Source: Eledone cirrhosa (Eukaryota). From it: a stretch of 64,000 bases of DNA. The translations under genes and the position numbers were made by a program. The notes under the pieces were generated by a model that was given only the letters and a program-made list of their open reading frames with translations, ran no database searches and was not told the DNA's origin. The first letter of the stretch is position 1, and each line of letters begins with the position of its first letter. Positions 461 to 55,400 of this stretch are shown here, piece by piece. The stretch spans positions 391,902,001 through 391,966,000 of the forward strand of contig OZ024740.1 of the NCBI GenBank assembly GCA_964016885.1, read 5' to 3'.

Positions 461-530
461 TGTCTTAATCTTCGCAACACAGAGATAACTTTCAAGTGCA
501 TATCAGAGATAACTTTCTGTCGAGTTAAAT

Positions 531-727
531 AATTGTTTCTACTTTTGGCACAAGGCCAGCAATTATCCCAGTCTATTACTTACTGGTACTTTATTTTATC
601 GACCCTGTAAGGATGAAAGGCAAAGATAACCTCGGCGGGATTTGAACTCAAATCATAAAGGGGCGTAACTCTATGCGTCAAAGCATGGCGTCCGACCCTC
701 TACCGATACTGCCAATCCACCACCCTC
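531..727 (-). mobile_element. tRNA-derived SINE (family S1), near full length
   Basis: Reverse complement has A-box-like TGGCAGTATCGG, B-box GAGTTCAAATCC, conserved core TTGCCTTTCATCCTTAC.GGGTCGATAAAATAAAGTACCAG and tail GGCCTTGTGCC..AAGTAGAAACAATT; at least 7 related copies in the window. Confidence 0.85.
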
Positions 728-3517: not shown

Positions 3518-4222
3518 TCTTCTTCTTCTTCTTCTTCTTCTTCTTCTTCTTCTTCTTCTTCTTCTTCTTCTTCCTGAGAGGGTCTTGGGGGTCAGAGTTC
3601 TCAAACATTCCTTCCAGCATGTCTTGTCAGAAGCAACCGTTTCCACCAGATGTAGCTGGATCCCCATATGAAACCAGGCGAGCTCATAGATGCTATCCAG
3701 CCATCGTGCTCGGGATCTATTGGGTTTCCTACCTGTTGGCTTTGCCCGTAAAATTTGTTCAGCGATTCTTTCCTGAGACATTTTACCACATTTCTATAGT
3801 ATCGGAGCTGTGATCTCTCAATTTGGAGAGGTAATGGCTCTACCTGGAGCGAATCCTTGATCCTCGAGCAACGTACTCTATCGAGTAACATTACTCCATA
3901 GACCCTGCGGAGGAAACCCATTTCGATCGCTTGTATTCGCGATTGTATTCATTTCGGTCATTACTCAAGAATCGTGACTATAGGTAAGGGTTGCCACGAA
4001 TACTGAATTGAAGTTAACGAGTTTGACTTTAACACCTACCTCCCTTCTTCTGACTACCGAATGTTGAATGTGACACATTACTGCACCAGCTCCTGCAATT
4101 CTTGCACTTAATTCAGCCTCCTGCCTTCCATCACTAGTGAACACGGCCCCGAGATACTGAACTTTTCTACCTGCTTCAGTGGAACTCCATTCATATGTTA
4201 TCGCACATTGTGCAGTCTTCCT
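3518..4222 (-). mobile_element. RTE-clade LINE 3' end with (AAG)n tail
   Basis: Minus-strand peptides VEKFSISG, MGFLRRVYGVMLLDRVR, IERSQLRY, KPTGRKP..R.RWLD; (CTT)n at 3518-3573 forms the simple-repeat 3' tail typical of RTE. Confidence 0.8.
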
Positions 4223-4660
4223 TCACATGTAAAATCTTAAATAAGATTTTATCATATAAGTGTATGTGTGCGTTAATGTGTGTGGTGCGTTTATAATGTG
4301 TTCATATCCGTATGTATATGTATTATATATGCCTATTCATAATTTGTATTGCGTATAGCCAATACACACATATACATGCCTGTGAGTGACACACGGATGA
4401 GAAAAAAGAAGAAATGAAAATAACATTAAATTAATATGCAGCCACCATGCTTCACTCAAGAGAAATCGTGTGTTGATCGAAACTCATATCAAAGTAGACA
4501 TGTCAGCTCATCTTACCGATAAGCTAATAGCTGCTTGGATACAAGAAGATATAGCATCAAAGCTAAGAGAATGATAAGATTTATCTTTTTCTCTGCTTTG
4601 TATTCGATGATTTCTTGAAAGTTGAGAGTAGAAGTCTAATTGATTATTTCTCTGAATTCG

Positions 4661-11704: not shown

Positions 11705-12011
11705 ACAAATCTTGTTTTGCAAGGTTTTTGATATGAAATCGTGTGTTGAAACATATATTGTTATACTTGGGGAGGGTTATATTGTTGTAATAATATTGCC
11801 AGAAATAATAACAGAACACACTCACTGACTTAAGAGAAATATAAATAAATAAGTAAATAAATACACAAGTACAATCACAACAAACACATATAAACACACA
11901 CTGGTAAACAAAGATAGAATACAAAAACCAAAACTCATACACTCAAACGCGAACACACACACCAAACATTATACACACACGCAAACGCATGCTTAGAGAC
12001 GGAGACAAGAA

Positions 12012-12062
<51 letters not shown>

Positions 12063-12161
12063 AATAAAAATGGCGTAGACATTAGAATACAATACAATAG
12101 GAGGGAACATAATAATAGTACCACTGATGATGTTGCAGATGTGCAACGAAGGAACTTTGAT

Positions 12162-12215
<54 letters not shown>

Positions 12216-12402
12216 TATATGTGTGTGTGTGTGTGTATTTTTAAGCGTTGGTCAATCAATGATAAACGTTGGTTGCCAAATAAATTAACTATGGAGATAT
12301 AAAAGATACAGAAGTGAAAACCAACCAAACAGTGAGTGTGTTCTGTTATTATTCCTGGCAATATTATTACAACAATATGACCCTCCCCAAGTAAAACAAT
12401 AT
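11705..12402 (+). mobile_element. Non-autonomous PLE-B-related element with 5' inverted arm and HHR
   Basis: ~11754-11828 is the reverse complement of ~12330-12402; 3' end atgaccctccccaagta.aacaatat equals the PLE-B ORF start; HHR-like motif at 12119-12162 (CTGATGA-T-GTTGCA/TGCAAC-GAAGGAACTTTGA). Confidence 0.8.
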
Positions 12403-12410
12403 ATATATAT

Positions 12411-13037
12411 CAACCAACAGGACCTCGAGAAAGTCGATCATTTCATCTATCTGGGCAGCATCCTGACAAGCAGCGGCGACGCGGAGATCGACATCAACTG
12501 TCGGATCGGCAAAGGAGCCGCAGTTTTCCAGCGGATGTGCCCAGTCTGGTCGTCTTTATGCATTAGCACCAAGACAAAGCTCCGCCTGTACAAGAGCATC
12601 GTGTTGCCGACAGTGCTTTATGTGAGCGAGACCTGGAAGAGTACGGCAAAAATAGAGAGACTGCTGAACACTTTCCACCAGCGGTGCCTGCGAAAGATCC
12701 TTCGTGTGTCCTGGCGCGACCGAGTGCGAAACGAGGAGATCCTGCGGAGAGCCGAGTCGTGGACGATACAGAGAGTGTTCACGGAGCGTCGGTGCCGTCT
12801 GGCTGGCCATATTCTGCGTCTGCCAAATGAACGGCATTCGAAAACAGCGATGAACTGGACTCCGCCTGGCGCTAAACGGAGGCGGGGTTGCCCAAGGATC
12901 ACCTGGCGACGAACATTCCGGAAGGACCTGATGGCAGCCAACATCACCTGGCACGGTCTCGAAAAAGTTGCTGCTGATCGTGACCGTTGGTGAGTACTTA
13001 CTGCTCGATGCGCCGAACGGCGCAGAAGAATCTGAGT
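12411..13037 (+). mobile_element. RTE-clade LINE, 5'-truncated
   Basis: EKVDHFIYLGS, RIGKGAAVF, KLRLYKSIVLPTVLYVSETW, FHQRCLRKIL, LAGHILR, KRRRG.PR.TW motifs; GC-rich and largely intact. Confidence 0.9.
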
Positions 13038-16439: not shown

Positions 16440-18058
16440 AATGAATAATAACAGGTAGACATCATAAAAAGGTAGTTTATTCCGTGTGCTTACAAGTGTT
16501 TCCACGGTGGTACTGCAGCCTAGTTCCGCTACGTGCAAATTCACAAGTATTTGCAGAACTCGAATATCCAATGCTGTGACCACTGTTTCCTCAGAGCAGA
16601 ATGGTAAATATACAATGTAAAAACCCTTAAGTGGGGTTGTTGGGGAAGATAGAGTGGAACAGGAAGAGAGAAAAGTAGGGAAGATGGAGAGAGAAGGAAA
16701 GATATGCAGGGGTTGGAGAAGTAGGAGAGAGTGGCTTGTAGATATCTTAATCAAAATGTTATGGTAGGGGTTTTATTAGTTACTTTTGGAGAGATGCGTA
16801 GATAGTTGAGGTCGGAATTATTTATTGCCCCAGAGGTCAAGTTCATAGATGTTGAGAAGGAGGTAGGTCAAAGGTGAGAGAGAGAGAGTGTAATGGATGT
16901 AGAGAGAGATATATAGGTAGAGAGGGGACAGATAAAGTATATGTGGTGAGTGAACTTTTGGTTTTGTAGTAGTAATCTAGGAATTGTACTGAGTTACCAT
17001 GTATAGTGATAAGCAGTGTATTGTCTTGTAGTGTGGGGGAGAAGAGAAGGTTGTTAGCTAGGAAGTGGTGTTGTAGTTACGGGTTCGAATGTTAAGTTAT
17101 TTTATAGTGAGAGAATTTAGCTTTTAGTTTGTGGTTGCAGTATAATGATCGTTCAATTCTATCGTTAAGTAGTTTGTTTTGGGATTTTAGTATGTAAAAT
17201 AGCTCAAGGTTACATAACCTGCAGTACTTCAAACCACTCCGATATGCATTTGCGCTGGAAAGTATATCCCATTTTAAGGTGAACTGTTGGTTGTGTTCAC
17301 GGAGTTGCCAGGTCTTGTTGGCGAGCGTGGTCACAAAACGGTGATTCTGATGTTTGATTGAGAATCGATGACGGTACCAGCGAGATTTAAACGATGTGGT
17401 GGTAGATCCGATATAATACCATTTCTGGTCGTCCGATTCAACCGTGCATTGGTAAACAATGCTGGACTTTAGGCATTCATTCTGCAATGGACATCTTTCA
17501 GGTAGATGGTAGTTACATGCTTTGTTGTGGGTAGCGGGTATACCATGGATAGGTTGTGATAGCGGTACAGGTGGGTTGTGCAATACCCGTCTCCCATTTA
17601 GTGGTTGGGAGGCAGATATTGCGTTCTGCCCATCTGTTACTAAAATGTTTTGTTTTGTAGAGTTGTTTAATTGCCTTAAGTTAAGTTTTTTTATGTATGC
17701 TTCAAGGTTTGGTGCCGTGGAGTATGATAGTCTAATAGTTTTGGAGTTCAGAATTTTGCTGTACTTATGGGAACTAGGGAAGTGTTTATTGATTAATTTA
17801 AAGAATGAAAGAGATAGTTTTGTACTAATCGAGGCATTAAAAATAGGATTATACCAGATATACTTTCTACAACGTGATTTATTTGGTGGTGAACTTCTAT
17901 TATTAGTATGTCTGGTAGTATAGTGTGTGTGTGCTTGTGTTTTAGTCCCCCGGTTACGTATACCTTGATTACGTGTAGAGCTATGTGTGTTGTGGAAATT
18001 ACTATCGATGTATTCTATTGTATCCCGGTGGTCAGCATTCCTTAATGCATTATTGTAG
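16436..18058 (-). mobile_element. 5'-truncated Naiad-like PLE-C (thumb/linker + GIY-YIG + pLTR)
   Basis: Peptide 18058-17092: YYNNAL, IWYNP.F, KHFP..H.YSKILN..TIRLSYS, CN...RCPLQNECL, IVYQC, YYIGST..FKSR, CRLC..E, CNHK; (TA)n at both ends. Confidence 0.88.
16487..16598 (-). ncRNA. Type-I hammerhead ribozyme, family C
   Basis: Reverse complement: TGCT-CTGAGGA-a-ACAGTGGT...ACCACCGT-g-GAAAC-ACTT-GT-A-AGCA; GUA triplet; lies in the PLE-C pLTR. Confidence 0.72.
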
Positions 18059-18074
18059 TAAATATATATATATA

Positions 18075-18495
18075 CGGAGTCTGTGCTGCTGTACGGGTCT
18101 GAGACTTGGACACTGACCAAGAAACTCACTCAGATGGTGAATGGGTGCTACACGAGAATGCTGAGGATGGCTCTGAACATTAATCAGTATACACTGAGGA
18201 GGAAAAAACTCAGAGCTGTATGGGAGCCTCCCAAAAGTCAGCTCAAAAGTGACACAGAGGAGACTGAGGTTAGCTGGACATGCTCACCGACATCCTGAGT
18301 TGACATTGCACTCAGTGCTCCTGTGGGAGCCTCTACATGGACACACTGGAAGAGGAAGACCAAGGTTAACGTATGTTGAGGCCCTAAGGACAGACACAGG
18401 TCTGTTGGAGACGCAGGACATGGCAGAGATAATGAGGGACAGAGACGACTGGAGAGAACTCGTCCATGGATCTCGGGAATTTTAACCGCCCTAGA
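18075..18495 (+). mobile_element. RTE-clade LINE 3' fragment
   Basis: ESVLLYGSETWTL, GCYTRMLRMALN, RRLRLAGH..RHPE, LWEP.HG..GRGRPRLTY motifs. Confidence 0.85.
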
Positions 18496-18515: not shown

Positions 18516-18707
18516 AACGAAGAAAGTGTGGTAAGGAATCAGATGGACCATAATGCACCAGAGTACTCAATACTTAGAGTAGTAGAGTGAGTAATAGGAA
18601 AATGTTTAATCCCGACGGCAGAGCTCAAGCCGTTTCGACGGCTATTTTTGTACTCAGAAATAGCCATCGAAACGGCTTGAGCTCTGCCGTCGGGGTTAAA
18701 CATTTTC
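18516..18707 (-). mobile_element. Family A pLTR 3' stub with fold-back inversion
   Basis: 18516-18646 matches the reverse complement of the PLE-A pLTR end; ~18598-18647 and ~18658-18707 are inverted repeats containing the 3' half of HHR-A. Confidence 0.8.
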
Positions 18708-18857
18708 ATATATATATTGTTATACTTTGGGAGGGTCATGTTGCCAATAAGAAACACATGCACCAGTTGCTTTCACTTCAATTTATTATAAATTAAATTT
18801 AGAAATTTAGAAATTTCCGTTTGGTTGGTTCCACAACCAGACGATTGTTCATATATT

Positions 18858-18900
18858 GTCAAAGTTCTTTCGTCATACATTCTGTGACCTCTTCAGTGAC
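18858..18900 (-). ncRNA. Minimal type-I hammerhead ribozyme, family B
   Basis: Reverse complement GTCA-CTGAAGA-G-GTCA-cagaatgta-TGAC-GAAA-GAAC-TT-TGAC; second copy at 22736-22778. Confidence 0.75.
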
Positions 18901-19099
18901 TGGGGATTCTTTTCTTTGTTTTTGTGCCTTTCCTTTTTTCTGTCGTATGCCATCTTGTTTTTGTGTGTGTTGTTTGCTTAGTTTGCGCATGTGTTACATC
19001 CGGGTGTCTCTGTGTGTTTATATTTGTTTATTTATTTGTTTATTTACATGTTACTGGTTGGTTGTTTGTTCTATGTGTGTGTGTGTTTTCATTTTGTCC

Positions 19100-22000
19100 T
19101 TAATTGTAAGTTGTGATGTTGCTGTTTCATTCATGTTTTCTATTTAATTTTGGTTGGAGTTCATTTATGTTTATTGCCTCTGTGATTTGTCTAAACATTG
19201 CGTCTTTTCTGTGTGTAGATTCTATTTTTATTTCTGTTCTCTAATTTACCCTTATGTTCTATTTTAGCATGTTGGTGGAGTACAGATGATTCTTTACTAT
19301 CTTGAAGCTCTCGCCAGTGTTCATTTATCCGTTCCCCTATACTACGAGCTGTCTCACCTATGTACACTATATTCTTATCTCTACATTGTCCTTCAGTACA
19401 TCTTATGCTATATACTACATTTCTAGTTTACAGATTATACATTTCTTATTTATACAGGGATATCTTTGAAAAGGGTATGTATTGCTAATAAGTGTTTTTA
19501 TGGAGGTACCTGGTCTTTCTATTATATTAATATTGAGTTTATGTTTATCTACGGCCCTTCTAAATTTATAAGCTAATTCACCTCTAGGTGTTGTATCGAT
19601 GAACATTACACTCTGGTATTTATTGCTATCATACCATGAGTTTATTCTATTAACCTTATTCCTAATTCTTTCTATTCTAATCCAAACTTTGCTCTTATAC
19701 AAGGGGCAGGTCCCATTTGTATCATTATTTACCATTTTTCCCCATTTGGTTCTGGCTCCTCTATATACTCTGATTTCTCATCACCCGTACCAAATCCGGA
19801 ATCAGTATGTTGATTTTGGTATGGTCCGAAACAGCTGAGTTTCGGTGGATCAGATATTTGGAGGTCATGGGTTTGGCATAATGGGAATTGAGGATTTGTT
19901 TTTTGTTATTAATGGTATCTAACCAGAGCTCTGTGTTGGGGTGTTTGATTGGGTAGTCTATAGTAACTCATATACTCTGGTGGATGGAGTTAGCTATTTG
20001 CTGGATGCTTTCCATGGTGTTTTTCTCTAATTCCTGACTGTTCTCTAGTGGGGTATTTTTACTACGATGTTTATATCATCAACGTTGTTCTTTAATTTTG
20101 AGTTTAAGTCTATTGTCCCACCATACCATGAATAGGTTAGCTATGCCACCTGCAATGCTAACACCAATGGCTGCTCCCTCCTCTTGGGCATATGTTTTTC
20201 CATTAAATTTGAACATATGTTCCTTAAGGGTTAATTTTATACTGGCCCCCACCGCATGTGCAATCATTTTCTTTAGTTCATCGTGGTTTTCGGGGGTCCG
20301 TATGGCTCTGGTCGACCCGTTCCATCTATCTGTGTGGGTTTTCTTGTCCATTGAGGTAATGGTAAGTGGTCTGCCTCTTGCTGGTCTTGTAGGGCACAGG
20401 TTGCTAAGGTCATATGTATCTAGATAATCATTACTATAGGTAAGTTTAAGTAGGAGTCCCAGCTCACTGGTATCAATCCCACGGAATTCAACATTGCTCT
20501 CACTGATCATTTCTACGCATTTCTCCACAGCAAAATCCACGTCAATAGATGGATACAGGGACACAACATCCATACTACCTATTATGCAGTTTGTTAGGTC
20601 CCTAGATCGGTTACTCTCGCCGATTCTGCTGAGGAGGTCCTCCGTGCTGTCACATATATCTGGGGACATTTCAATGATGGGGCGTATGATCAGGTAGAGG
20701 AAGTAGGACAGTCTGTAGTTACTAGCAATGTTTGTGGTCCTGTGACAGGGTCACTGATCGTTTTATGGTCTTTTCGAAGCCTATACAACGCTGGCACGTC
20801 ATTGTTCCAGGCCTGGAAGTTGTTGGCAGTCCTTTTGTTGGGCTGCATTATATTTGTCCACATGATCATATGGGCATTGAGGGTTTTTTCCCTATCCTCA
20901 TGCTCTTGTGGTGTTACTTCTCTTGTGTTAGTGATGTGTGGTTGCATTGCCTGGATGTAGTTTGACAGACTGTCAACCGACATTCTGCCAGAGTTGTCTG
21001 TTGGAAAGCATGCAATCTCTCCATTACACGAGCGCTGCATGAGCTTACGCAAGCCATTTGCAGATTTTTCTCCCAGTTGCTGGGCCTCCATTCTATTTTG
21101 CTTTTTGCCATACTGTTCTATAATATTTCTAAGTTTAGATCTAGCTATACTAAATTGTGCTTCTGTTTGTTCATCGACCTGAGACGGCAATTGCGTGCGT
21201 TTGTTAAAAGCTAAAGTCGTGGCGTGGACTCGTCGTAGGTCGAAGGACATATCGGAAGGATTATAAAAAGTAGAGTTCCAGGTTGCTGCTTTATGTGTAC
21301 TATTGCTATTGTTATTGTTAGTTGTGTTGTTTCTATTTCTATTTCCACCAACAGCCTCATGGTTGTTTCTATGTCTCTCATTATTACTTCTGTCGCTTTC
21401 CTCTGGCTCATTGTTATTATCTACTCTATTTTGTGTGTCTGTGTGTTCGTCCTGGTTATTTTCTCTGTCAGTATCGATAGTCTCCCTTCTCCTTTCAATC
21501 CTATTACCTTCCCTTATTTCTGTGTTACTGTCATTACCTGTTTTCTGTGTCTGTGTGTTTGTTAAGATTGTGTTGGTGGTGGTGGTGGTGAGAGGCATAG
21601 AATGTGTGTGTGTTGTTGTTGTTGGTGTGTGCTGTTGTTGATGCGTGTTGCTGTTGTTGTCTCCGTGTATGTTATTATTGTTGTGTGTGTCGTTATTGTT
21701 GTTTGTGTCTGTTGTTATTGTTTCTGAGTATGTTATTATTGTTGATGTGTGTGTTGTTGTTATCGTTGTTTGTGTCTGTGTGTCTGTTGTTGTTGGGTGT
21801 GTTGTATGTGCGCGCGTGTGTGTGTGTGTGTGTGTGTGCATATGTTGTTACTTTTGTTTTTGTATTTGTTTTTGAGGCTCCAACGTAATTTTGTAAATGA
21901 TTTTTCTATTTCTGACAAGCATTTTATCATATTTACCTTATTATATGTGGCATATTTAGGTGGTAGCTGTAATATCGATAATTCACCAGAGTCGACTGTA

Positions 22001-22605
22001 GTGTTGCCGTATATATTTGTGTTGTTGTTGTTGAATTCATCTGTTAATGAGATGTCGGCCATATTTATCCCGTCAATTTTGTCGGGATAACTATCGATAT
22101 TCTCTAAAGTATCTTGATTTAGTTTTATCTGTTTGAGCCACTTTAGTTTCTTGCTAAAGTGCTTGTCACATTCTTGAACAATGTACTTTTCTTCAAGACA
22201 TATAAGGTTTATAAATATTAATTTTTCTCTTGGTGTGGTGATCTTAGTTATTTCTTGTATTAGGTTACGCTTAAGTTTTTCTTGATGACTTAATTCTCTG
22301 TAAATCTTCTTTTTTATATTTAGAATTAGTGTTCGCTTTAGCCTATCTGCTTGCTTTTTGGTGAGTTGTAATCTTCTTACATCGGTGTTGATGGTGTTGG
22401 TGTAAACTCGGGACGAGGCACATTCTTTTATGAAGTGTAGTTGTCGAGATGTTATTGTTTTTCGTAGACAACAGAACATCGTGGTTTTCAGTATCTTGTT
22501 AGCATGGCTAAGGCTTACGATATTTCGTTTCTGAATTTGTTTAGCAAGATTCTTTATCTGAAAACGTGTGTTGAAACCGATATTGTTATACTTTGGGAGG
22601 GTCAT
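19100..22605 (-). pseudogene. PLE-B RT + GIY-YIG ORF, frameshifted/deleted, with Asn/Thr-rich insert
   Basis: Starts [15 protein letters not shown]; LQLPPKYA, PTDNSGR, LYRLRKDHK, GSMDVVSLYPSI, QEEGAAIG...IANLFM, VDDINIV (~20056-20076), FIDTTPRGELA, C...KCIIC, VYIGETARSIGERINEH, RQITEA. Confidence 0.9.
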
Positions 22606-23379
22606 GTTGCCAATAAGAAACACACGCACCAGTTGCTTTCACTTCAATTTATTATAAATTAAATTTATAAATTTAGGAATTCATAAATTTCCTGTTGATT
22701 GGTTGGTTCCACAACCAGACGATTGTTCATATATTGTCAAAGTTCTTTCGTCACACATTCTGTGACCTCTTCAGTGACTGGGGATCCTTTTCTTTGTTTT
22801 TGTGCCTCTCCTTTGTTCTATCTGTCCTACGCCATCTTGTTTTTGTGTGTGGTGTGTGCTTAGTTTGTGCATGTGTTACATCCGGGTGTCTGTGTGTGTT
22901 TATATTTGTTTATTTATTCGTTTATTTACATGTTACTGGTTGGTTGTTTGTTCTATGTGCGTGTGTGTTTTCATTTTGTCCTTAATTGTAAGTTGTGATG
23001 TTGCTGTTCCACTCATGTTTTCTATTTAATTTTGGTTGGAGTTCATTTATGTTTATTGCCTCTGTGATTTGTCTAAACATTGCGTCTTTTCTATGTGTAG
23101 ATTCTATTTTTATTTCTATGTTCTCCAATTTACCCTTATGTTCTATTTTAGCATGTTGGTTGAGTACAGATGATTCTTTACTATCTTGAAGCTCTCGCCA
23201 GTGTTCATTTATCCGTTCTCCTATACTACGAGCTGTCTCACCTATGTACACTATATTCTTATCTCTACATTGTCCTTCAGTACATCTTATGCTATATACA
23301 ACATTTTTAGTTTATAACAATATCGGTTTCAACACACGTTTTCAGATAAAGAATCTTGCTAAACAAATTCAGAAATGAA

Positions 23380-23460
<81 letters not shown>

Positions 23461-27280: not shown

Positions 27281-27467
27281 AGGGCGGTGGATTGGCAGTA
27301 TCGGTAGAGGGTCGGACGCCATGCTTTCCAGCATAGTTACGTCCCTTTACGATCTGAGTTCAAATCCCGCCGAGGTTGACTTTGCCTTTCATCCTTACGG
27401 GGTCGATAAAATAAAGTACCAGCAATGCACTGGGTAATTTCTGGCCTTGTGCCTAACGTAGAAACAA
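27281..27467 (+). mobile_element. SINE S1 inserted in the PLE-F ORF, with target-site duplication
   Basis: Full S1 sequence flanked by ttattagtgatagataga at 27263-27280 and 27468-27485. Confidence 0.9.
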
Positions 27468-27864
27468 TTATTAGTGATAGATAGAGAAAAAGGAGCATTA
27501 TACCAAATCATATTTTTGTATCTAGGTCTTTTATTTAAGTTATTGGAATGTTCATAATTAACTATTTTACTATAGTAAAATAGTTAATTATAAAATATTA
27601 ATAGTTAACATTGTAAGACAATGTTTTCTCAGTTGTAACGGCTATTTCTCTCTCTCTATCACTCATTTCTCCTCCTCTCTCATCCTTCCTTCTTATACTC
27701 CTCCTCCACCCTCCTTTATTTTCTTTCTTCCTCTTCCTTACCTTTTCCTACCCCCACCCATCATTTTTTCCCAATCTCATATATCCATCTTACTTTATTT
27801 TTCATATGTTGATTTAAAACTTCACTGCTCGCAAGTGTTTTTTAAGCTTCATATCATGTCTCCC

Positions 27865-31223: not shown

Positions 31224-31447
31224 AGGGTGGGGGATTGGCAGTATCGGTAGAGGGTCGGACGCCATGCCTTGCAGCATAGAGTTACAGCCCTTTATGATCT
31301 GAGTTCAAATCCCGCCGAGGTTAACTTTGCCTTTCATCCTTACGGTGTCGATAAAATAAAGTAACAGTCATGCAGCTGGGGTCGATTTAATCGACTCTCC
31401 TTTCCCCAAAAACTGATGGTCTTGTGCCTATATAAGAAACCATTATT
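31224..31447 (+). mobile_element. SINE S1, long variant
   Basis: S1 head and core plus an extra ctggggtcgatttaatcgact segment before the tail. Confidence 0.85.
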
Positions 31448-32068: not shown

Positions 32069-32250
32069 TGGCAGTATCGGTAGAGGGACGGATACCATGC
32101 TTTGCAGTAACGAGTTACGGCCCTTTACGGACTGAGTTCAAATCCCGCCGAGGTTAGCTTTGCCTTTCATTCTTACGGGGTCGATAAAATAAAGTACCAG
32201 TAATTTACTGGGTAATTGCTGGCCTTGTGCCAAAAGTAGAAACAATTATT
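32069..32250 (+). mobile_element. SINE S1
   Basis: tggcagtatcggtagagg...gagttcaaatcccgccgagg...agtagaaacaattatt. Confidence 0.85.
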
Positions 32251-32922
32251 ACTATGACCATATGTGGCTTTGAATTCTAGTATCCTCCCCTCTTCCTTTA
32301 TACGTATGCTACATGCTCGCTCTCAAACAACCCATTAGATCATCTGGATTATTGCACTTCAGCAGTTAAGCTGGTAGAAGCGTTCTACAAGCTTTCTACT
32401 AATCTATCAAATCAGTTTGGGTTCATTCAGTTCGACTTTTGAGTAATCTCTTTCTTTTATCTTTCTTCTCGGTGAAGATTAGTAAAAGCATCTCATGTTT
32501 GTCTCCTTATCTGTTCAGTATGACGTTTGCATCAACTCCGGATATTTTAGATTACATATCTCTCCATATATTTTATCTTTTTCTTTTCCTTTTCGATCAT
32601 GTTGCTTAATCAGTCGACATAACATTAATCGTTCATCTGTCGGTGATGCAGCAGTAAATCGCAGTAAAGAGAGATATTAGAAATTATTGGATTGAAAATA
32701 ATGTAATAGTAGCTACAAATTGGAAAATCTACAAACATACATGTAACAGTCATTGCAATAGATATAAATAACGATAAAATAAAGTAAACGCTGGTGTAAG
32801 ATGAAATACGTCAGTTTCAATACTTGAATAGAAACTTATGATTGGAGATTCTGACTGGACTGAGTCTAGTATTTAAAGCTGAAACATACAACGAAGCATA
32901 TTCTCTACAATACTCTCTCTCT

Positions 32923-32954
<32 letters not shown>

Positions 32955-33167
32955 ATTTATATATATTTACATACATATTCATTATTATAATGCACTGGGT
33001 AATTACTGGCCTTGTGCCTAACGTAGAAATAATTATTATGGCCAAGTAGTGAGTTTTGTTACCGTGGAGCTTCACCTGCGCATTCACAGGATCATCAGCT
33101 GTATTGAGTACTCTTTTCTCCGTCAAATATATAAGACTTTTTATACCTCTGTTTTGTCATTTCCTTG

Positions 33168-33218
<51 letters not shown>

Positions 33219-33222
<4 letters not shown>

Positions 33223-33369
33223 TTGGTCAGTCAATGATAAACATTGAGGACCAAATGAATAAACTGTGTAGACATAAAAGATACAGAAGCGAAGACCAAC
33301 CAAACAGTGAGTGTGTTCTGTTATTATTTCTGGCAATATTATTACAACAATATGACCCTCCCCAAGTAT

Positions 33370-33376
<7 letters not shown>
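33219..33376 (+). mobile_element. Non-autonomous PLE-B-related 3' stub
   Basis: Matches ~12248-12402 and ~36539-36696; ends atgaccctccccaagtataacaatat inside (TA)n. Confidence 0.85.
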
Positions 33377-33444
<68 letters not shown>

Positions 33445-34889: not shown

Positions 34890-34897
<8 letters not shown>

Positions 34898-34946
34898 ATA
34901 CTTGGGGAGGGTCATATTGTTGTAATATTGCCAGAAATAATAACAG
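34890..34946 (-). mobile_element. Non-autonomous PLE-B-related 3' stub
   Basis: Reverse complement of ctgttattatttctggcaatattacaacaatatgaccctccccaagtataacaatat, within (TA)n. Confidence 0.8.
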
Positions 34947-35375
34947 TATATACTATATATATATATAACATATTTACATTTTGTCTTTTTAACACCACAC
35001 TCCTCACTGATTAACCTCGATATCACGTGATTGATTCTTTTGAATTTGCCACCGACCAAGTAGGCAGTGATTTTTTTCAATGTCTTGGAATTTAGTCCAC
35101 GCTTGCTTTTTTCCATCCACTGAATTATTTTTGTATAAGTTACCTGTGTCCACGCATCGCCAGGTAACTTAGCTGAGAACAGACTTCCTGATGACGAAAC
35201 GGCTTCTCCATGCTTTCCATTTGGAAACCATGTTTATTAACTTTCAGAAACTAATTAGTTTGAGTGAAATTTTAGTAAGTAAGATAATTTTTATAATTTT
35301 CTTATTTTACGTCTTTCATATAATTGTTCTGCATCCCCTTGCATTGAACCACAAAGTTACTTATTATTTTCCGTC

Positions 35376-36145
<770 letters not shown>

Positions 36146-36165
36146 TATATATATATATATATATA

Positions 36166-36786
36166 TATTGTTATACTTGGGGAGGGTCATATTTGTGCAA
36201 TATTGCCAGAATTAATAACAGAACACACTCACTGTTTGGTTGGTTTTCGCTTTTCGCTTCTGTGTCTTTTATATCGGTTAATTTTATTTTATTCGGTCCT
36301 CAATGTTGCGATTGACTGACCAACGGTCAAAAATACAGATACAATATAGACACAAACACATATATATAGTCTATCAAAGTTCTTTCGTTGCACATCTGCA
36401 ACATAAAGATGGCGTAGACATACAATGCAACGGGATGAAACAATAGCACCACTGACGATGTTGCAGATGTGCAACGAAAGAACTTTGATAAACTATATAT
36501 ATGTGTTTGTGTCTATATAGTATCTGTATTTTTGACCGTTGGTCAGTCAATGGCAACATTGAGGGCCGAATAAATTAAATTAACCGATATAAAAGACACA
36601 GAAACGAAAAGCGAAAACCAACCAAACAGTGAGTGTCTTCTGTTATTAATTTTGGCAATATTACACAAATATGACCCTCCCCAAGTATAACAATATTTGT
36701 TTCGACACACAATTTCATATCATGTCGTGATTAAGATGACAATATTTGTTTCGACACACGATTTCATATCAAAAACCTCGCAAACC
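36166..36786 (+). mobile_element. Non-autonomous PLE-B-related fold-back element with HHR
   Basis: ~36166-36403 inverted at ~36459-36696; HHR 36447-36490 (CTGACGA-T-GTTGCA-gatg-TGCAAC-GAAAGAACTTTGA); extension gtttcgacacacgatttcatatcaaaaacc resembles PLE-B codons FNTRF.IKNL. Confidence 0.85.
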
Positions 36787-36852
36787 TAATTCATTGCCGT
36801 TATATATATATATAACGAATTCATCGCCGTTATATATATATATAACGTATAA

Positions 36853-37026
36853 AGTATCGGTAGAGGGTCGGACGCCATGCTTTCCAACATAGTTACGTCC
36901 CTTTATGATCTGAGTTCAAATCCCACCGAGGTTGACTTTGCCTTTCATCCTTACGGCGTCGATAAAATAAAGTACCAGTAATGCACTGGGTAATTGCTGG
37001 CCTTGTGCCTAAAGTAGAAACAGTTA
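36853..37026 (+). mobile_element. SINE S1 (slightly 5'-truncated)
   Basis: S1 B-box, core and tail. Confidence 0.85.
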
Positions 37027-37178
37027 TATATATATATATATCAAAATAAAGATCCGAAGGCATGGTAATACTCCGTTTTACATCATCTAGCTGTTCCCAT
37101 AAATGGAACTGGAGATATACAAAAGCGTGGAGAACTTAATATTGGTCACAAAAATTTGACACAACCAATAATACACCT

Positions 37179-38082: not shown

Positions 38083-39649
38083 TATGTTATAATGATAATT
38101 TAAGGGTAAGAAATTGTCAATACATGTCTGTACAATTATATAAGCGCAATGACATAAGAAAATGTAAAAGTAAGTGGATTTACATACATAAATGTATTGG
38201 AGGAGCGATTCTTACCATCCATATTAATACATATATACGAGGAAATAATAGACCAAAATACAAAATATACTTATTTTTTCTTCAAAGTTCCGACTGCAGT
38301 TTCGCCGAATAAGTTTGCAACAATTTTCAAGTGACTCGCTGATTGTTGGGACGCTAGTTGAAGACTTTACATAATATAACTAGTGTTCTCTGTCCTCCTC
38401 TAAATTGTGCACAAAGGAAATTTTAAATTCAGCACTCCATACTAACGTTGCATTTATATAATATGCCTGCTAATCGCAGCAGGAAATCTCTTATTCACGG
38501 TATATCAAAACTGGTTGTCTGAACTAATGAGATTTAAACGCCACTGACTGATAGACAGGCAGCATATCTACTTGACTAGCTCCGATGCTCTAAATTTTCA
38601 AGCAGATCAGTAATAGATATCTTATTAATATGATAAATAATTCCGCTTGTATTGGAAGAGGGTTAGAAACGAACTAAATACCAAATAGCATTAGTAACAA
38701 AATCAGGTTTGCCATTCATTATGCCGGTATCGATTAAATAGTATTAGTCATATACTAGGATCAATCAATTGACTATACTATTTTTTAAAATATGTGGCTT
38801 TCTGCTCATTTGAAAATTATGCATATACAACGAATATACATATTGCTCTATATACATTGTTCATGACAGGTACTGACGAGGAGAAATGGTATGTTGCTTG
38901 TTATAAACATATCTTCTTTATTATCTTCATTAAGTGCTTTGCTTTTTAGATGCTATACTCGAAAAAAAATCAATAAATTATCTAAAAAAGTATATAATTA
39001 ACGGTAGATTATTTATAATGAAGGTCGTAATTAATTCAAAGCTAAGACGTCTAGTGCATATTTAATCAGAACTAGTTGCTTCGGGAACGTAAATTGACCG
39101 AGTAAATTTGTGCTGACAGTGTAAAAGAAATGACAGTTTGAAAAATCTATCCAGAATATAATAAAATCATTCGAATTCTCCCTCTCAGTGAAAATTATAA
39201 AGCTAATAAATATTTTATAATGAATATCCCTTTTAAAATCAAAGAAATGTTATTGAATTTATCCCGATGTGTATCATAAAGCAATAGCACGACTCTGAGT
39301 TACTGTTCCTTCTGCATAATAGCGACTAAGTGACGATGAGTTGTCGGAAAGCCTTTTTAGATGGTAATATATAAAAAGTATATGCAAAATCTGCAAACTA
39401 GAAGCAAGTATTTGAACATAAGTTATCATTATGCAACATCTCCTTTCTTTTAGATAAAGAAAGATTATTTAATATATCTGGTATCCAACTCTGGCAATTA
39501 AATCATCATAGAGATCTATAAAGTCATTATATCAATAAAGTTCTTTCAAGCTGAAATGGAAAGTATTCAACCAATCACACTGACCCACATTAATCATTCA
39601 AATTTAAACAAACTACCGTATCACATTATCAGTAAATATTATTATCAAT

Positions 39650-39755
39650 ACCGAGGTTAACTTTGCCTTTCATCCTTACGGGGCCGATAAAATAAAGTAC
39701 CAGTAATGTACTGGGTATTTGATGGCCTTGTGCCAAAAGTAGAAACAATTATTAT
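39650..39755 (+). mobile_element. SINE S1 3' half
   Basis: ccgaggttaactttgcctttcatcc...agtagaaacaattatt. Confidence 0.8.
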
Positions 39756-42020: not shown

Positions 42021-42410
42021 CAAAGAGGGTGTGGTAAGATACCAGGTGGACCATAACGCGCCAGAGTACTCAATACTTAGGGTAGTAGAGTGGGTAATAG
42101 GAAAATAGCCAGGACCCTGATATATGTATTTTGAGTTTTTCGAATATTAATAATTGTTTCTACTTTTGGCACAAGGCCAGCAATTATCCAGTGTATTACT
42201 GGTACTTTATTTTATCGACCCCGTAAGGATGAAAGGCAAAGTTAACCTCGGCAGGATTTGAATAATAATATTCGATTCGTTTGCAATTATGCAAACAGCC
42301 TCTTTAAGCCATGTCAGTAGAATGATTCCGTCATTCTTGTTCATATAAACAGAACGGCAGACACTAATGTTTCTGGGTGATTATTAATATTCGAAAAACT
42401 CAAATTACAT
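42017..42410 (-). mobile_element. Family A-related pLTR stub with inversion, interrupted by a partial SINE S1 (42150-42262, -)
   Basis: 42017-42103 resembles the reverse complement of the pLTR-A tail; ttgagtttttcgaatattaataat (~42131) inverted at ~42380-42404. Confidence 0.65.
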
Positions 42411-51790: not shown

Positions 51791-52464
51791 CTGAGTACGG
51801 TTTAGTTTGATATAATAATAATGAAATTATTGTGTACAGTGCTCAGGTACACTACAAGAAGGTTAGTGTATTCTCTCTAAAAATGGATACGATGAAATTG
51901 GCACCACGATTATCAAGCAGTACTAAAAGTAACAGCAAAAACATATAGAATAGCCAATTAGTAAATTGCGTTCATTAATCATAATAGCTGTGTAATAACA
52001 CACATTAGTCGTTTTCACGCTCATCTTATCTTCCATTTGTAAAATTAACGATTGCAAAACTAGAAAAATAAATGGTGATGTGGCTGGTAGGGAAGGAAAA
52101 GAGGACTACTTAGCAGCTTCTACTTAATGTCACTTAACAGCCGAGCGATTTCACTACGGAACAGGTATAACAAGCACTTTATGAATATAGTGTTGAGGAT
52201 GATGATGATCAACATCGCCATTATCATCAATAGAAGCAATAAGAGTTTCAAGAGGAGACAGAGTAACATCACCATCAGTTATCACCGTCGTTCTCATCAG
52301 AACAGCCACAATCTAGATTATCATGATCACTAACATCTTTATCTTCAGGATTGATCACAATCATCATCATCGTCAACATCGTCTCCGTCTTAATTCTCTT
52401 CCTTCTCCTCCTTCTATCCTACACCTTCATCGTCGTTTCGGACGTTATCGTCGTTCTATCAATT

Positions 52465-55400
52465 GATGATAGTGATGATGATAGTGGTGATGGTAGTGGT
52501 GATGGTAGTGGTGATTGTAGTGGTGATGGTAGTGGTGATTGTAGTGGTGATTGTAGTGGTGATGGTAGTGGTGATGATAGTGGTGATGGTATTGGTGATG
52601 GTAGTGGTGATGGTAGTGGTGATGGTAGTGGTGATGGTAGTGGTGATGGTAGTGGTGATTGTAGTGGTGATTGTAGTGGTGATGGTAGTGGTGATGATAG
52701 TGGTGATGGTATTGGTGATGGTAGTGGTGATTGTAGTGGTGATGGTAGTGGTGATGATAGTGGTGATGGTAGTGGTGATGGTAGTGGTGATGGTAATGGT
52801 GATGGTAGTGGTGATGGTAGTGGTGATGGTAGTGGTGATGGTAATGGTGATGGTAGTGGTGATGGTAGTGGTGAGGGTAGTGGTGATGGTAGTGGTGATG
52901 GTAGTGGTGATGGTAGTGGTGATGGTAATGGTGATGGTAGTGGTGATGGTAGTGGTGAGGGTAGTGGTGATGGTAATGGTGATGGTAATGGTGATAGTAG
53001 TGGTGATGGTAGTGGTGATGGTAGTGGTGATGGTAGTGGTGATGGTAGTGGTGATGGTAATGGTGATGGTAGTGGTGATGGTAGTGGTGATGATAGTGGT
53101 GATGGTAGTGGTGATGGTAGTGGTGATGGTAATGGTGATGGTAGTGGTGATGGTAGTGGTGAGGGTAGTGGTGATGGTAGTGGTGATGGTAGTGGTGATG
53201 GTAGTGGTGATGGTAATGGTGATGGTAGTGGTGATGGTAGTGGTGAGGGTAGTGGTGATGGTAGTGGTGATGGTAGTGGTGATGGTAGTGGTGATGGTAA
53301 TGGTGATGGTAGTGGTGATGGTAGTGGTGAGGGTAGTGGTGATGGTAATGGTGATGGTAATGGTGATAGTAGTGGTGATGGTAGTGGTGATGGTAGTGGT
53401 GATGGTAGTGGTGATGGTAGTGGTGATGGTAATGGTGATGGTAGTGGTGATGATAGTGGTGATGGTAGTGGTGATGGTAGTGGTGATGGTAATGGTGATG
53501 GTAGTGGTGATGGTAGTGGTGATGGTAGTGGTGATGGTAGTGGTGATGGTAGTGGTGATGGTAATGGTGATGGTAGTGGTGATGGTAGTGGTGAGGGTAG
53601 TGGTGATGGTAATGGTGATGGTAATGGTGATGATAGTGGTGATGGTGGTGGTGATGATAGTGGTGATGGTAGTGGTGATGGTAATGGTGATGGTAGTGGT
53701 GATGATAGTGGTGATGGTGGTGGTGATGGTAGTGGTGATGATAGTGGTGATGGTAGTGGTGATGGTAGTGGTGATGATAGTGGTGATGGTATTGGTGATG
53801 GTAGTGGTGAGGGTAGTGGTGATGGTAATGGTGATGGTAATGGTGATGGTAGTGGTGATGATAGTGGTGATGGTAGTGGTGATGGTAAGGTGATGATAGT
53901 GGTGATGGTAGTGGTGATGGTAGTGGTGATGGTAGTGGTGATGGTAGTGGTGATGGTAGTGGTGATGGTAGTGGTGATGGTAATGGTGATGGTAGTGGTG
54001 ATGGTAGTGGTGATGGTAAGGTGATGATAGTGGTGATGGTAGTGGTGATGGTAGTGGTGATGGTAGTGGTGATGGTAGTGGTGATGGTAGTGGTGATGGT
54101 AGTGGTGATGATAGTGGTGATGGTAGTGGTGATGGTAGTGGTGATGGTCGTGGTGATGATAGTGGTGATGGTAGTGGTGATGGTAGTGGTGATGGTAGTG
54201 GTGATGGTAGTGGTGATGGTATTGGTGATGGTAGTGGTGATGGTAGTGGTGATGGTAGTGGTGATGGTAATGGTGATGGTAGTGGTGATGGTAGTGGTGA
54301 TGGTAGTGGTGATGATAGTGGTGATGGTAGTGGTGATGGTAAGGTGATGATAGTGGTGATGGTAGTGGTGATGGTAGTGGTGATGGTAGTGGTGATGGTA
54401 GTGGTGATGGTAGTGGTGATGATAGTGGTGATGGTAGTGGTGATGGTAGTGGTGATGGTAGTGGTGATGATAGTGGTGATGGTAGTGGTGATGGTAGTGG
54501 TGATGGTAGTGGTGATGGTAGTGGTGATGGTGGTGGTGATGATAATGGTGAAAGTAGTGGTGATGGTAATGGTGATGGTAGTGGTGATGGTAGTGGTGAT
54601 GGTAGTGGTGATGATAATGGTGATGGTAGTGGTGATGGTAGTGGTGATGGTAGTGGTGATGATAATGGTGATGGTAGTGGTGATGGTAGTGGTGATGGTA
54701 GTGGTGATGGCAGTGGTGATGGTAGTGGTGATGGTGGTGGTGATGATAGTGGTGATGATAATGGTGATGGTAGTGGTGATGGTAGTGGTGATGGTAGTGG
54801 TGATGGTGGTGGTGATGATAGTGGTGATGGTAGTGGTGATGGTAGTGGTGATGGTAGTGGTGATGGTAGTGGTGATGGTAGTGGTGATGGTAGTGGTGAT
54901 GATAGTGGTGATGATAGTTGTGATGATAGTGGTGATGGTAGTGGTGATGGTAGTGGTGATGGTAGTGGTGATGGTAGTGGTGATGGTAGTGGTGATGATA
55001 GTGGTGATGGTAGTGGTGATGGTAGTGGTGATGGTAGTGATGATGATGATGGTGATGGTAGTGGTGATGGTAGTGGTGATGGTAGTGGTGATGGTAGTGG
55101 TGATGGTAGTGGTGATGGTAGTGGTGATGGTAGTGGTGATGGTAGTGGTGATGATGGTGGTGATGGTAGTGGTGCTGATAGTGGTGATGGTAGTGGTGGC
55201 GGTAGTGGTGATGATAGTGGTGAAGGTAGTGGTGATGGTAGTGGTGATGGTAGTGGTGATGGTGGTGGTGATGATAATGGTGATGGTAGTGGTGATGGTA
55301 GTGGTGATGGTAGTGGTGATGGTAGTGGTGATGGTAGTGGTGATGATAGTGGTGATGGTAGTGGTGATGGTAGTGGTGATGATGGTGGTGATGGTAGTGG

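What the first reader, a model, noticed from the sequence alone, without database searches (positions are those of the whole stretch)
11705..12402. Non-autonomous hammerhead element family borrowing the PLE-B ends (retrozyme-like partner)
Seen: copies at 11705-12402, 33219-33376, 34890-34946 and 36166-36786 are non-coding but share two modules with PLE-B: the terminal ATGACCCTCCC.AAGTATAACAATAT (= ORF start MTLPKYNNI, sometimes extended to FNTRF.IKNL) and the HHR 3' side GAAAGAACTTTGA. Stem II is replaced while keeping pairing (GTTGCA/TGCAAC instead of GTCA/TGAC). Inference: a SINE-like parasite of a PLE whose conserved modules mark the cis-signals for trans-mobilisation; alternatively solo pLTRs of a sister autonomous family.
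Basis: partly seen in the sequence, partly recalled or inferred. Interest (0 to 1): 0.75.

Follow-up and report, generated by a model that had tools for sequence, protein, structure and literature searches.

The report
Truncated, mirror-paired Penelope element ends
These short hammerhead-bearing repeats are broken-off, often mirror-paired tail ends of two abundant Penelope-like jumping-gene families that land in TA repeats, a pattern already described, so they are likely by-products of those elements and not a separate parasite.

Summary
The 26-nt terminal motif occurs 8 times in the window against 0 expected. The hammerhead stem II differs from PLE-B but still pairs.

The main interpretation does not hold. 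Genome searches show the window copies belong to two sister subfamilies: C1 (36165-36803) and C2 (11710-12402, 33179-33377, 34890-34954). Longer copies of both run without a break upstream into an RT + GIY-YIG ORF.

The short copies show the published signature of Penelope-like element (PLE) insertion:
- 5' truncation
- head-to-head inverted pairs with different junctions
- a 43-58 nt "tail" on one arm only (21 of 24 pairs)
- (TA)n targets
- a minimal hammerhead

Short copies do not form a lineage separate from ORF-bearing copies, although the trees resolve poorly.

One point stays open. Many short copies begin at a conserved ATGGCGTAGAC box that resembles a YY1 site, whereas the pLTRs of ORF-bearing copies do not. 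That leaves room for a discrete ~300-nt RNA-derived class.

Earlier notes of this scan reached the same general reading on other DNA of this genome. This is a known kind of element; interest is low to moderate.

The parts
11710..11830 (-). Inverted arm of a C2 insertion: the last ~75 nt of the element (26-mer at 11755-11780) plus a ~44-nt tail that continues into the first ORF codons (11710-11754)
   Evidence: 11714-11827 matches reference 4271-4381 at 92%; tail sequence
11831..12402 (+). 5'-truncated C2 copy. It holds the last ORF codons and stop, the 3'UTR with an (AAAT)n run, the ATGGCGTAGAC box (12070-12080), a minimal hammerhead (12120-12165, with G in place of A15.1), an internal (TA)n(TG)n run (12166-12238) and the terminal 26-mer (12377-12402) with no tail
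   Evidence: (11846-12402 matches reference 3850-4340)
33179..33377 (+). Solo C2 copy cut off within or just after the internal (TA)n run. It has no hammerhead, ends at AACAATAT and has (TA)n on both sides
34890..34954 (-). 65-nt 5'-truncated C2 end inside a (TA)n run
36165..36404 (-). Left arm of a head-to-head C1 pair. Its 5' end lies inside the CTGACGA box, so the hammerhead is half missing. Its 3' end is AACAATAT next to (TA)n
   Evidence: reference 4102-4340, 96.7%
36403..36722 (+). Right arm of the C1 pair. It starts 6 nt before the ATGGCGTAGAC box (36409-36419), carries a complete minimal hammerhead (36451-36492, predicted cut after 36485), the 26-mer at 36671-36696 and 26 nt of tail
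   Evidence: (reference 4047-4366, 95.9%)
36736..36803 (+). Tail-only fragment (CAATAT to +58), separated from the right arm by a 17-nt copy of the upstream flank 36092-36108. Unexplained
18714..23383 (-). PLE-B, the related autonomous-type element. In order: inverted tail fragment (23383-23313), pLTR made of the 3' part of a truncated upstream copy (23313-22606), ORF start at 22605, RT and GIY-YIG reading frames broken by frameshifts and stops, hammerheads at 22774-22737 and 18896-18859, 3' end AACAATAT at 18714 next to (TA)n

Best explanation
The copies are 5'-truncated, often head-to-head paired 3'-terminal pieces (3'UTR, minimal hammerhead, first ORF codons and an optional tail) of two autonomous sister Penelope-like element families. 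They were likely made when the element's RT/endonuclease primed reverse transcription on both strands of a cut (TA)n target and stopped early. Shown here: the short copies are colinear with ORF-bearing copies; their 3' ends are fixed; one arm of a pair has a tail and the other does not; they sit in (TA)n; junctions differ between loci. Inferred from published PLE biochemistry: RT starts inside the RNA, just after the conserved 26-mer (AACAAUAU) or 43-58 nt further on. All these sites end in UA/AU, so the nicked (TA)n 3' end could anneal there. Each cDNA then runs towards the RNA 5' end and mostly ends early, and the two cDNAs are joined head to head. The conserved 26-mer plus the following ACACAC-rich ~60 nt would be the RT recognition and initiation region. 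That it also encodes MTLPKYNNI follows from the ORF starting inside the terminal redundancy. The hammerhead is kept by selection (compensatory stem II) but its role is untested.
For: Continuity with an ORF:
- C1: 12 of 29 primary arms sampled with only the last 100 nt reach into the ORF, 9 of them to the limit of the reference, 814 nt upstream of the box.
- L011 reads through RT (YVNDI) and GIY-YIG (VVYSIRC..YIGETARSIGERIDQH).
- L034 is a pLTR plus full-length unit of about 4.3 kb.
- C2: the EN-coding query gives 3701 first-look candidates, and 17 of 29 loci align in one piece from EN through 3'UTR and hammerhead to the terminus.

No separate lineage:
- The label for short copies that start at the box needs 8 changes for 9 rows in C1, against a shuffled mean of 8.3.
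- In C2 the ORF-bearing rows L085, L075 and L087 nest among short rows.
- Both sequence signatures occur in ORF-linked and in short copies.

Insertion signature:
- Junction positions differ in every pair.
- 21 of 24 C1 head-to-head pairs have a tail on one arm only (rows). Hand calculation from those rows: binomial P about 1.4e-4 for an even split.
- 3' ends are followed by (TA)n-like sequence in 24 of 27 loci listed.

Protein:
- RVT_1 hit at E 8.3e-5.
- About 1000-aa homologues.
- A profile hits RT structures.
- Atlas look-alike clusters carry RVT_1 and GIY-YIG.
- CX4-5CxxC linker and CCHH motifs are seen in the alignment.

Literature:
- 5' truncation, pLTR, an adjacent inverted truncated copy, a 30-40 bp tail often at one end only, and microsatellite targets (PMC8557442; passages and section 11 read).
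- Both strands cleaved and extended, and two internal RT start sites that define the tail (PMC11167929).
- Dual minimal hammerheads 100-700 bp apart on opposite strands, with few inside full PLEs (PMC4209133, passages).
Against: - In the C2 sample drawn with the window's own 164-nt end, only 2 of 28 primary arms run deep into the ORF and one more reaches 24 nt into it.
- 5' ends are not smoothly spread. 8 of 17 (C1) and 15 of 25 (C2) ends that fall in the 3'UTR-plus-unit interval lie within about -35..+20 of the ATGGCGTAGAC box. None of 10 pLTR ends of ORF-5'-bearing copies does (the windows were chosen after seeing the data).
- Simple random truncation does not predict this. A discrete RNA species or self-propagating units could.
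- The trees have no starred branches, so their power to reveal a young separate lineage is low.
- Pfam gave no GIY-YIG hit, and the RT hit is below Pfam's cut-off.
- Samples are the top-scoring 30 of hundreds to thousands of candidates, not random draws.
Confidence: 0.85

Rival explanations
1. A subset, the ~300-340-nt units that begin at the ATGGCGTAGAC box, is a discrete RNA-derived class. One version: these are full-length cDNAs of a short pLTR-initiated RNA, made because PLE RT starts internally at the first pLTR-ORF junction (a by-product resembling strong-stop DNA). The other version: they are solo units that carry their own internal promoter and are copied in trans, like a SINE.
For: 5' ends cluster at the box in both subfamilies (8 of 17 and 15 of 25; binomial P 2.8e-4 and 7e-7, windows chosen after seeing the data) but are absent among pLTR ends of ORF-bearing copies (0 of 10; Fisher P 0.012). 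The box is conserved in PLE-B, C1 and C2. Its reverse complement, CGCCAT(C/T)TT, matches long YY1 sites quoted in PMC11602158 (passages). The abstract of that paper says YY1 dictates where human L1 transcription starts. Internal RT initiation is documented for a PLE (PMC11167929).
Against: There are no diagnostic substitutions, and both sequence signatures are shared with ORF-linked copies. Starts are spread over about 40 nt, next to an AT-rich (AAAT)n run where alignment ends and microhomology joins are ambiguous. No RNA data could be had. In the window only one arm, 36403-36722, belongs to this class.
Confidence: 0.3
2. A dedicated non-autonomous hammerhead family (retrozyme-like or SINE-like) that has captured the PLE-B terminal signals.
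For: The window copies are non-coding and share conserved modules with PLE-B. Animal retrozymes are reported to derive from PLE pLTRs (bioRxiv 10.64898/2026.07.22.740005, abstract only).
Against: The copies are colinear with abundant ORF-bearing copies of the same subfamilies. The only tandem found (L155) lacks the hammerhead. The short copies hold no sequence of their own. Junctions differ between loci.
Confidence: 0.05
3. A fold-back or MITE-type DNA transposon with long terminal inverted repeats that inserts at TA.
For: Palindromic look, flanks of (TA)n.
Against: Arms have unequal and locus-specific inner ends. Many copies are single arms. Arms extend into an RT/EN ORF, and one arm carries a tail that the other lacks.
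Confidence: 0.01

Closest known systems
Canonical C-terminal EN+ Penelope-like elements with a CX2-5CxxC linker (Neptune/Nematis type; Craig et al. 2021, PMC8557442)
   Same: A single ORF with RT then GIY-YIG; CCHH and CX4-5CxxC motifs; pLTR formed by a partial tandem; strong 5' truncation; adjacent inverted truncated copy; tail at one end; microsatellite target; hammerhead in the pLTR.
   Different: Clade placement rests on motifs only; no phylogeny with named references was run. The tail here is 43-58 nt rather than 30-40. The ORF's ATG lies inside the terminal redundancy.
Poseidon of Anolis carolinensis (PAc), internal initiation of reverse transcription (Frangieh et al. 2024, PMC11167929)
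   Same: 3' ends map to a few fixed sites within the first ~60-85 nt of the ORF, and the stretch between them is the tail. An AC-rich stretch lies there. Insertion on both strands would give the inverted pairs.
   Different: In PAc the RT start is not homologous to the cut DNA. Here every start site ends in TA/AT and abuts (TA)n, so microhomology is possible (inferred). Nothing was tested biochemically here.
[quoted passage not shown]
   Same: CUGANGA core, one unpaired base before a long helix II (6 bp), short helix I, a helix III of 2 bp with a 2-nt loop, and dual motifs on opposite strands a few hundred bp apart.
   Different: Helix I of the C families has a C.A mismatch (54 of 65 copies unpaired at that position). 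Activity is untested. Rfam models do not detect it.
Animal non-LTR retrozymes (Cervera and de la Pena 2020, PMC7229834, listing and abstract only; Li et al. 2026 preprint, abstract only)
   Same: Short non-coding hammerhead-bearing units related to PLE pLTRs.
   Different: Retrozymes are tandem arrays that give circular RNAs. These copies are solo or inverted, are colinear with an ORF in longer copies, and the one tandem seen lacks the ribozyme.

Membership tests
Penelope-like elements, C-terminal EN+ | Reverse transcriptase domain in the single ORF | tested here: met
   RVT_1 E 8.3e-5, though below Pfam's cut-off. A profile of homologues hits RT structures at E 1.2e-4. YVNDI/YVDDI motif seen.
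Penelope-like elements, C-terminal EN+ | RT groups with PLE/TERT in a phylogeny | not tested
   No named PLE reference sequences were at hand. Atlas look-alikes with RVT_1 + GIY-YIG are only a lead.
Penelope-like elements, C-terminal EN+ | C-terminal GIY-YIG endonuclease with CCHH motif | tested here: met
   VVYSIRC-x4-C..YIGETARSIGERI..H-x4-H seen in PLE-B, C1 and homologues. Pfam gave no GIY-YIG hit.
Penelope-like elements, C-terminal EN+ | pLTR (partial tandem) with a hammerhead | tested here: met
   L034 and window PLE-B; hammerhead covariation.
Penelope-like elements, C-terminal EN+ | 5' truncation, adjacent inverted truncated copy, tail at one end | tested here: met
   tail on one arm only in 21 of 24 pairs.
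Neptune/Nematis-type linker | CX2-5CxxC motif upstream of GIY-YIG | tested here: met
   CINKKCIIC (PLE-B), CTNRKCIIC (C1), conserved C909/C914/C917 in homologues.
Hydra clade of PLEs | CCHH absent, linker CxCX5C, elements under 3 kb | tested here: not met
   CCHH is present, the linker is CX4CxxC, and units are about 3.9 and 4.3 kb. Criteria taken from PMC8557442 section 11.
Animal non-LTR retrozymes | Tandem arrays of hammerhead-bearing units | tested here: not met
   Head-to-tail arrays of the unit were seen at one locus only among the matches listed by the DNA searches: four head-to-tail matches at C27, fetched as L155. Its units lack the hammerhead.
Animal non-LTR retrozymes | Unit-length circular RNA | not testable with these tools
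   No RNA holder listed; contigs cannot show RNA ends.
SINE-like non-autonomous element | Own lineage with a discrete 5' end and internal promoter, never joined to an ORF | tested here: inconclusive
   A discrete 5' end class exists. There is no separate lineage and the same sequence is joined to ORFs.
Rfam hammerhead families | Match to a curated covariance model | tested here: not met
   No hit at gathering score and none at E up to 10 on the two hammerhead regions. The miRNA hits there only reflect the palindrome.

The most novel reading that the evidence does not exclude
Solo pLTR units of about 300-340 nt are self-sufficient SINE-like retroposons. A YY1-type box right behind their first base sets the transcription start. 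The hammerhead and the 26-mer/ACACAC start region follow it. Because PLE RT starts inside the RNA, any read-through transcript of a solo unit can be copied precisely in trans.
Probability: 0.1. Interest if true: 0.6.

Novelty: new member of a known kind. Interest (0 to 1): 0.25.

Why it matters
The result removes a tempting false lead. Palindromic, ribozyme-bearing, non-coding islands in TA repeats need no new class of parasite. They are the expected debris of Penelope-like elements.

The material is still useful. Hundreds to thousands of young copies give a natural record of where this enzyme starts (three fixed sites ending in TA/AT) and of how the two ends of an insertion are made (tail on one arm only). 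They also show that the hammerhead stem is under selection. The clustering of short copies at a YY1-like box is a cheap, testable hint about the PLE promoter and about how retrozyme-like derivatives could arise.

Tried and rejected
- Rfam: nothing at gathering score on the whole window. No hammerhead model at E up to 10 on 36330-36530 or 22700-22850. The miRNA-family hits are generic long-hairpin matches below their cut-offs.
- Pfam on the EN piece and three PLE-B pieces: no family. Pfam on three homologues: none.
- PDB by sequence with the EN piece: only chance-level hits.
- RNA evidence: no RNA holder listed. Four runs of unknown kind, kept as contigs, were found and two were laid. They show far higher summed word depth on the terminal ~340 nt than on the ORF 5' part, and loose ends into (TA)n at the tail end. 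They cannot show RNA starts, ends or circles.
- Conserved structure around the 26-mer: RNAalifold gave only an invariant 6-bp GUGUGU/ACACAC pairing with no covariation. Not claimed.
- Pairing of the ATGGCGTAGAC box with sequence behind the cleavage site: fits C1 by eye, not C2 or PLE-B. Dropped.
- The idea that the box marks the start of the full-length mRNA: pLTR ends of 29 ORF-5'-bearing copies spread from beyond -810 to +361, with none at the box.
- My first guess that 52-64 kb is telomeric: it is a 12-bp satellite, and the contig continues beyond the window.
- Fold-back DNA transposon reading: rejected (see rivals).

Full report
**What is in the window**

The 26-nt motif ATGACCCTCCCCAAGTATAACAATAT occurs 8 times with up to 3 mismatches, against 0 in 100 shuffles. 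Two of the hits belong to PLE-B on the minus strand (23383 to 18714). PLE-B reads, in order:
- an inverted tail fragment;
- a pLTR made of the 3' part of a truncated upstream copy (end of the GIY-YIG frame, 3'UTR, hammerhead);
- the ORF start [15 protein letters not shown] at 22605;
- RT and GIY-YIG frames broken by frameshifts and stops;
- a second hammerhead;
- a 3' end ...AACAATAT that abuts (TA)n at 18714.

Reading them shows what the finding did not state: the two long copies are each two arms in head-to-head inverted orientation, with the AACAATAT ends pointing outward into (TA)n.

**Two subfamilies, both with autonomous copies**

Mapping a natural full-length copy onto the window splits the copies in two:
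- C1: 36165-36803, 96-97% identical to the reference.
- C2: 11710-12402, 33179-33377 and 34890-34954, about 72-92% identical to the C1 reference depending on the stretch.

*C1.* A search of the window's own 3.0-Gb genome with 36400-36700 gave 2210 first-look candidates. The 40 scored were 96-98% identical. These counts are lower bounds and cannot be compared between queries of different length. Many loci continued upstream of the query. L011 reads through RT and GIY-YIG motifs. Four extended loci include L034, a pLTR followed by a unit of about 4.3 kb whose ORF starts with the 26-mer and whose 3' end repeats it.

To avoid bias towards long copies, I sampled again with only the last 100 nt (806 candidates, 29 loci besides the window's own). 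Of the 29 primary arms, 12 reach into the ORF, and 9 of those reach the limit of the reference, 814 nt upstream of the box. Counting partner arms as well, 15 of 29 loci hold ORF sequence.

*C2.* A search with 12239-12402 gave 1909 candidates. In that sample only L075 and L085 run deep into the EN frame, and L087 runs 24 nt into it. However, the EN-coding part of L085 found 3701 candidates at 92-94% identity. In 17 of 29 such loci one unbroken alignment runs from EN through the 3'UTR and hammerhead to the terminus, and three more do so in two colinear pieces.

**The protein**
- Pfam gives only a sub-threshold RVT_1 hit and no GIY-YIG hit.
- The RT piece finds about 1000-aa unnamed homologues.
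- A profile of those homologues hits RT structures.
- Atlas look-alike clusters carry RVT_1 and GIY-YIG (a lead only).
- By eye the C-terminus has a CX4-5CxxC linker, VVYSIRC-x4-C, YIGETARSIGERI and H-x4-H.

By the criteria quoted in PMC8557442 this is the canonical CCHH endonuclease with a Neptune/Nematis-type linker, not the Hydra type. The clade was not tested by phylogeny.

**Insertion anatomy**

*3' ends* fall in three classes, each followed by (TA)n:
- directly after AACAATAT;
- 43-45 nt further on (...CAAAACTA);
- 57-58 nt further on (...CGCCGTTA).

The extension is the start of the ORF.

*Pairs.* Of 24 C1 head-to-head pairs in which both arms reach the terminus, 21 have the tail on one arm only (rows). 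Both window pairs follow that pattern: at 11710-12402 the left arm has a full tail and the right arm none, and at 36165-36722 only the right arm carries tail sequence, 26 nt of it. Inner junctions differ in every pair, so the pairs are independent events and not copies of one fold-back element.

*Fit to the literature.*
- Craig et al. describe 5' truncation, pLTRs, an adjacent inverted truncated copy, a tail often at one end only, and microsatellite bias tied to the linker (PMC8557442).
- Frangieh et al. show that a PLE protein cleaves and extends both DNA strands and starts reverse transcription at two internal sites in the first ~118 nt of the ORF, which define the tail (PMC11167929).
- Cervera and de la Pena describe dual minimal hammerheads 100-700 bp apart on opposite strands, few of them inside full PLEs (PMC4209133).

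One difference is an inference, not a test. All start sites here end in TA/AT, so the (TA)n primer could anneal there, whereas the Anolis element uses no homology.

**The hammerhead**

Among 65 distinct genomic copies the core CUGANGA...GAAA is nearly invariant. One unpaired base precedes a 6-bp helix II. Helix II pairs in 97.7% of cells and shows UA>CG (12) and GC>AU (10) changes with G.U intermediates. The given register scores far better than slid registers. Cells count sequences, not events.

Helix I is 4 bp in PLE-B but has a C.A mismatch in the C families. Helix III is 2 bp with a 2-nt loop, the dimer-type minimal design. Rfam does not detect it. Activity was not tested. In vitro, the Anolis hammerhead is dispensable for insertion.

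**Is there a separate short lineage?**

Trees of the segment from the box to the terminus do not separate short copies from ORF-linked copies:
- C1: 8 changes for 9 short rows, shuffled mean 8.3.
- C2: L085, L075 and L087 nest among short rows, and the mild clustering follows the two sampling queries.
- Two sequence signatures in C2 both occur in ORF-linked and in short copies.

The trees have no strongly supported branches, so this is absence of evidence at modest power.

**An open point**

5' ends are not evenly spread.
- 8 of 17 (C1) lie within -35..+12 of a conserved box ATGGCGTAGAC;
- 15 of 25 (C2) lie within -35..+20 of it (windows chosen after seeing the data).

In 29 copies selected for the ORF 5' part, the pLTR ends spread from beyond -810 to +361. 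None of the 10 in the same interval lies at the box (Fisher P 0.012).

The box is shared by PLE-B, C1 and C2. Its reverse complement, CGCCAT(C/T)TT, matches long YY1 sites quoted in PMC11602158. The abstract of that paper says YY1 sets the start of human L1 transcription. The position of the L1 site is recalled from Athanikar et al. 2004, which I did not see.

I read this as a possible RNA 5' end of a short pLTR-initiated transcript that is copied from the first internal RT start site. A self-propagating solo unit is less likely. Ambiguity from the AT-rich (AAAT)n run next to the box weakens the case.

A smaller group of ends lies at or a few bases past the predicted ribozyme cut, or in the internal (TA)n run. 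It is too small and too ambiguous to claim cleavage.

**Tandems**

The one array seen (L155) is four copies of a 140-nt truncated end, each with its (TA)n and without the ribozyme. It looks like a local duplication, not a retrozyme.

**Earlier notes of this scan**

Notes on other DNA of the same genome reached the same general reading: Penelope ends in TA repeats, a rule for the two ends, and ends near but past the ribozyme site. I tested these points independently here.

**Verdict**

These are new members of a known kind.

Noticed in passing
window 52464-64000: A 12-bp satellite (TGATGGTAGTGG)n of about 962 copies, with GC skew near 1, running off the window end. It is not telomeric, and the contig continues for at least 5 Mb.
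   Followed up: partly
window 18600-18712: A perfect ~110-nt hairpin element (AAAATGTTTAACCCCGACGGCAGAGCTCAAGCCGTTTCGA...), MITE-like, inserted in the TA run right beside the PLE-B 3' end. Related sequence flanks PLE ends in L019 and L086.
   Followed up: no
window 17092-18129 (-): A 345-aa open frame with a GIY-YIG-like core (IVYQCTV..YYIGSTTTSFKSRWYRH), unrelated in sequence to the PLE-B endonuclease. Possibly another element type.
   Followed up: no
window 528-636, 27369-27476, 31314-31380, 32147-32251, 32988-33039, 36926-37027, 39637-39755, 42148-42270: A ~105-nt dispersed repeat with a tRNA-like T-arm stretch (GAGTTCAAATCCCACCGAGG), probably a SINE. One copy sits inside the ORF of reference copy L034.
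   Followed up: no
window 12410-12993 (+): A LINE-type RT C-terminal fragment (..LEKVDHFIYLGSILTSSGDAEIDINCRIGKG..) directly right of the C2 copy.
   Followed up: no
window 36092-36108 and 36725-36741: A 17-nt direct repeat TGTCGTGATTAAGATGA. The second copy lies between the right arm's partial tail and a tail-only fragment (36736-36803). It may be filler from template switching or a trace of an older insertion.
   Followed up: partly
L155 1040-1790 (G000 contig 27): Four tandem copies of a 140-nt 5'-truncated C2 end, each followed by (TA)n. The last one has a tail, and none has a hammerhead.
   Followed up: yes
L106, L032, L049, L034, L031 flanks: Other hammerhead-like motifs with different stems (for example CTGATGAAGGACTAGCGTCCGAAAC) turned up in flanks of the sampled loci. 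This suggests further ribozyme-bearing families in this genome.
   Followed up: no
window 12070-12080, 36409-36419, 22835-22824 (-): The conserved box A(A/G)ATGGCGTAG(G)AC lies 40-60 nt before the hammerhead in PLE-B, C1 and C2. Its reverse complement matches long YY1-type sites.
   Followed up: partly
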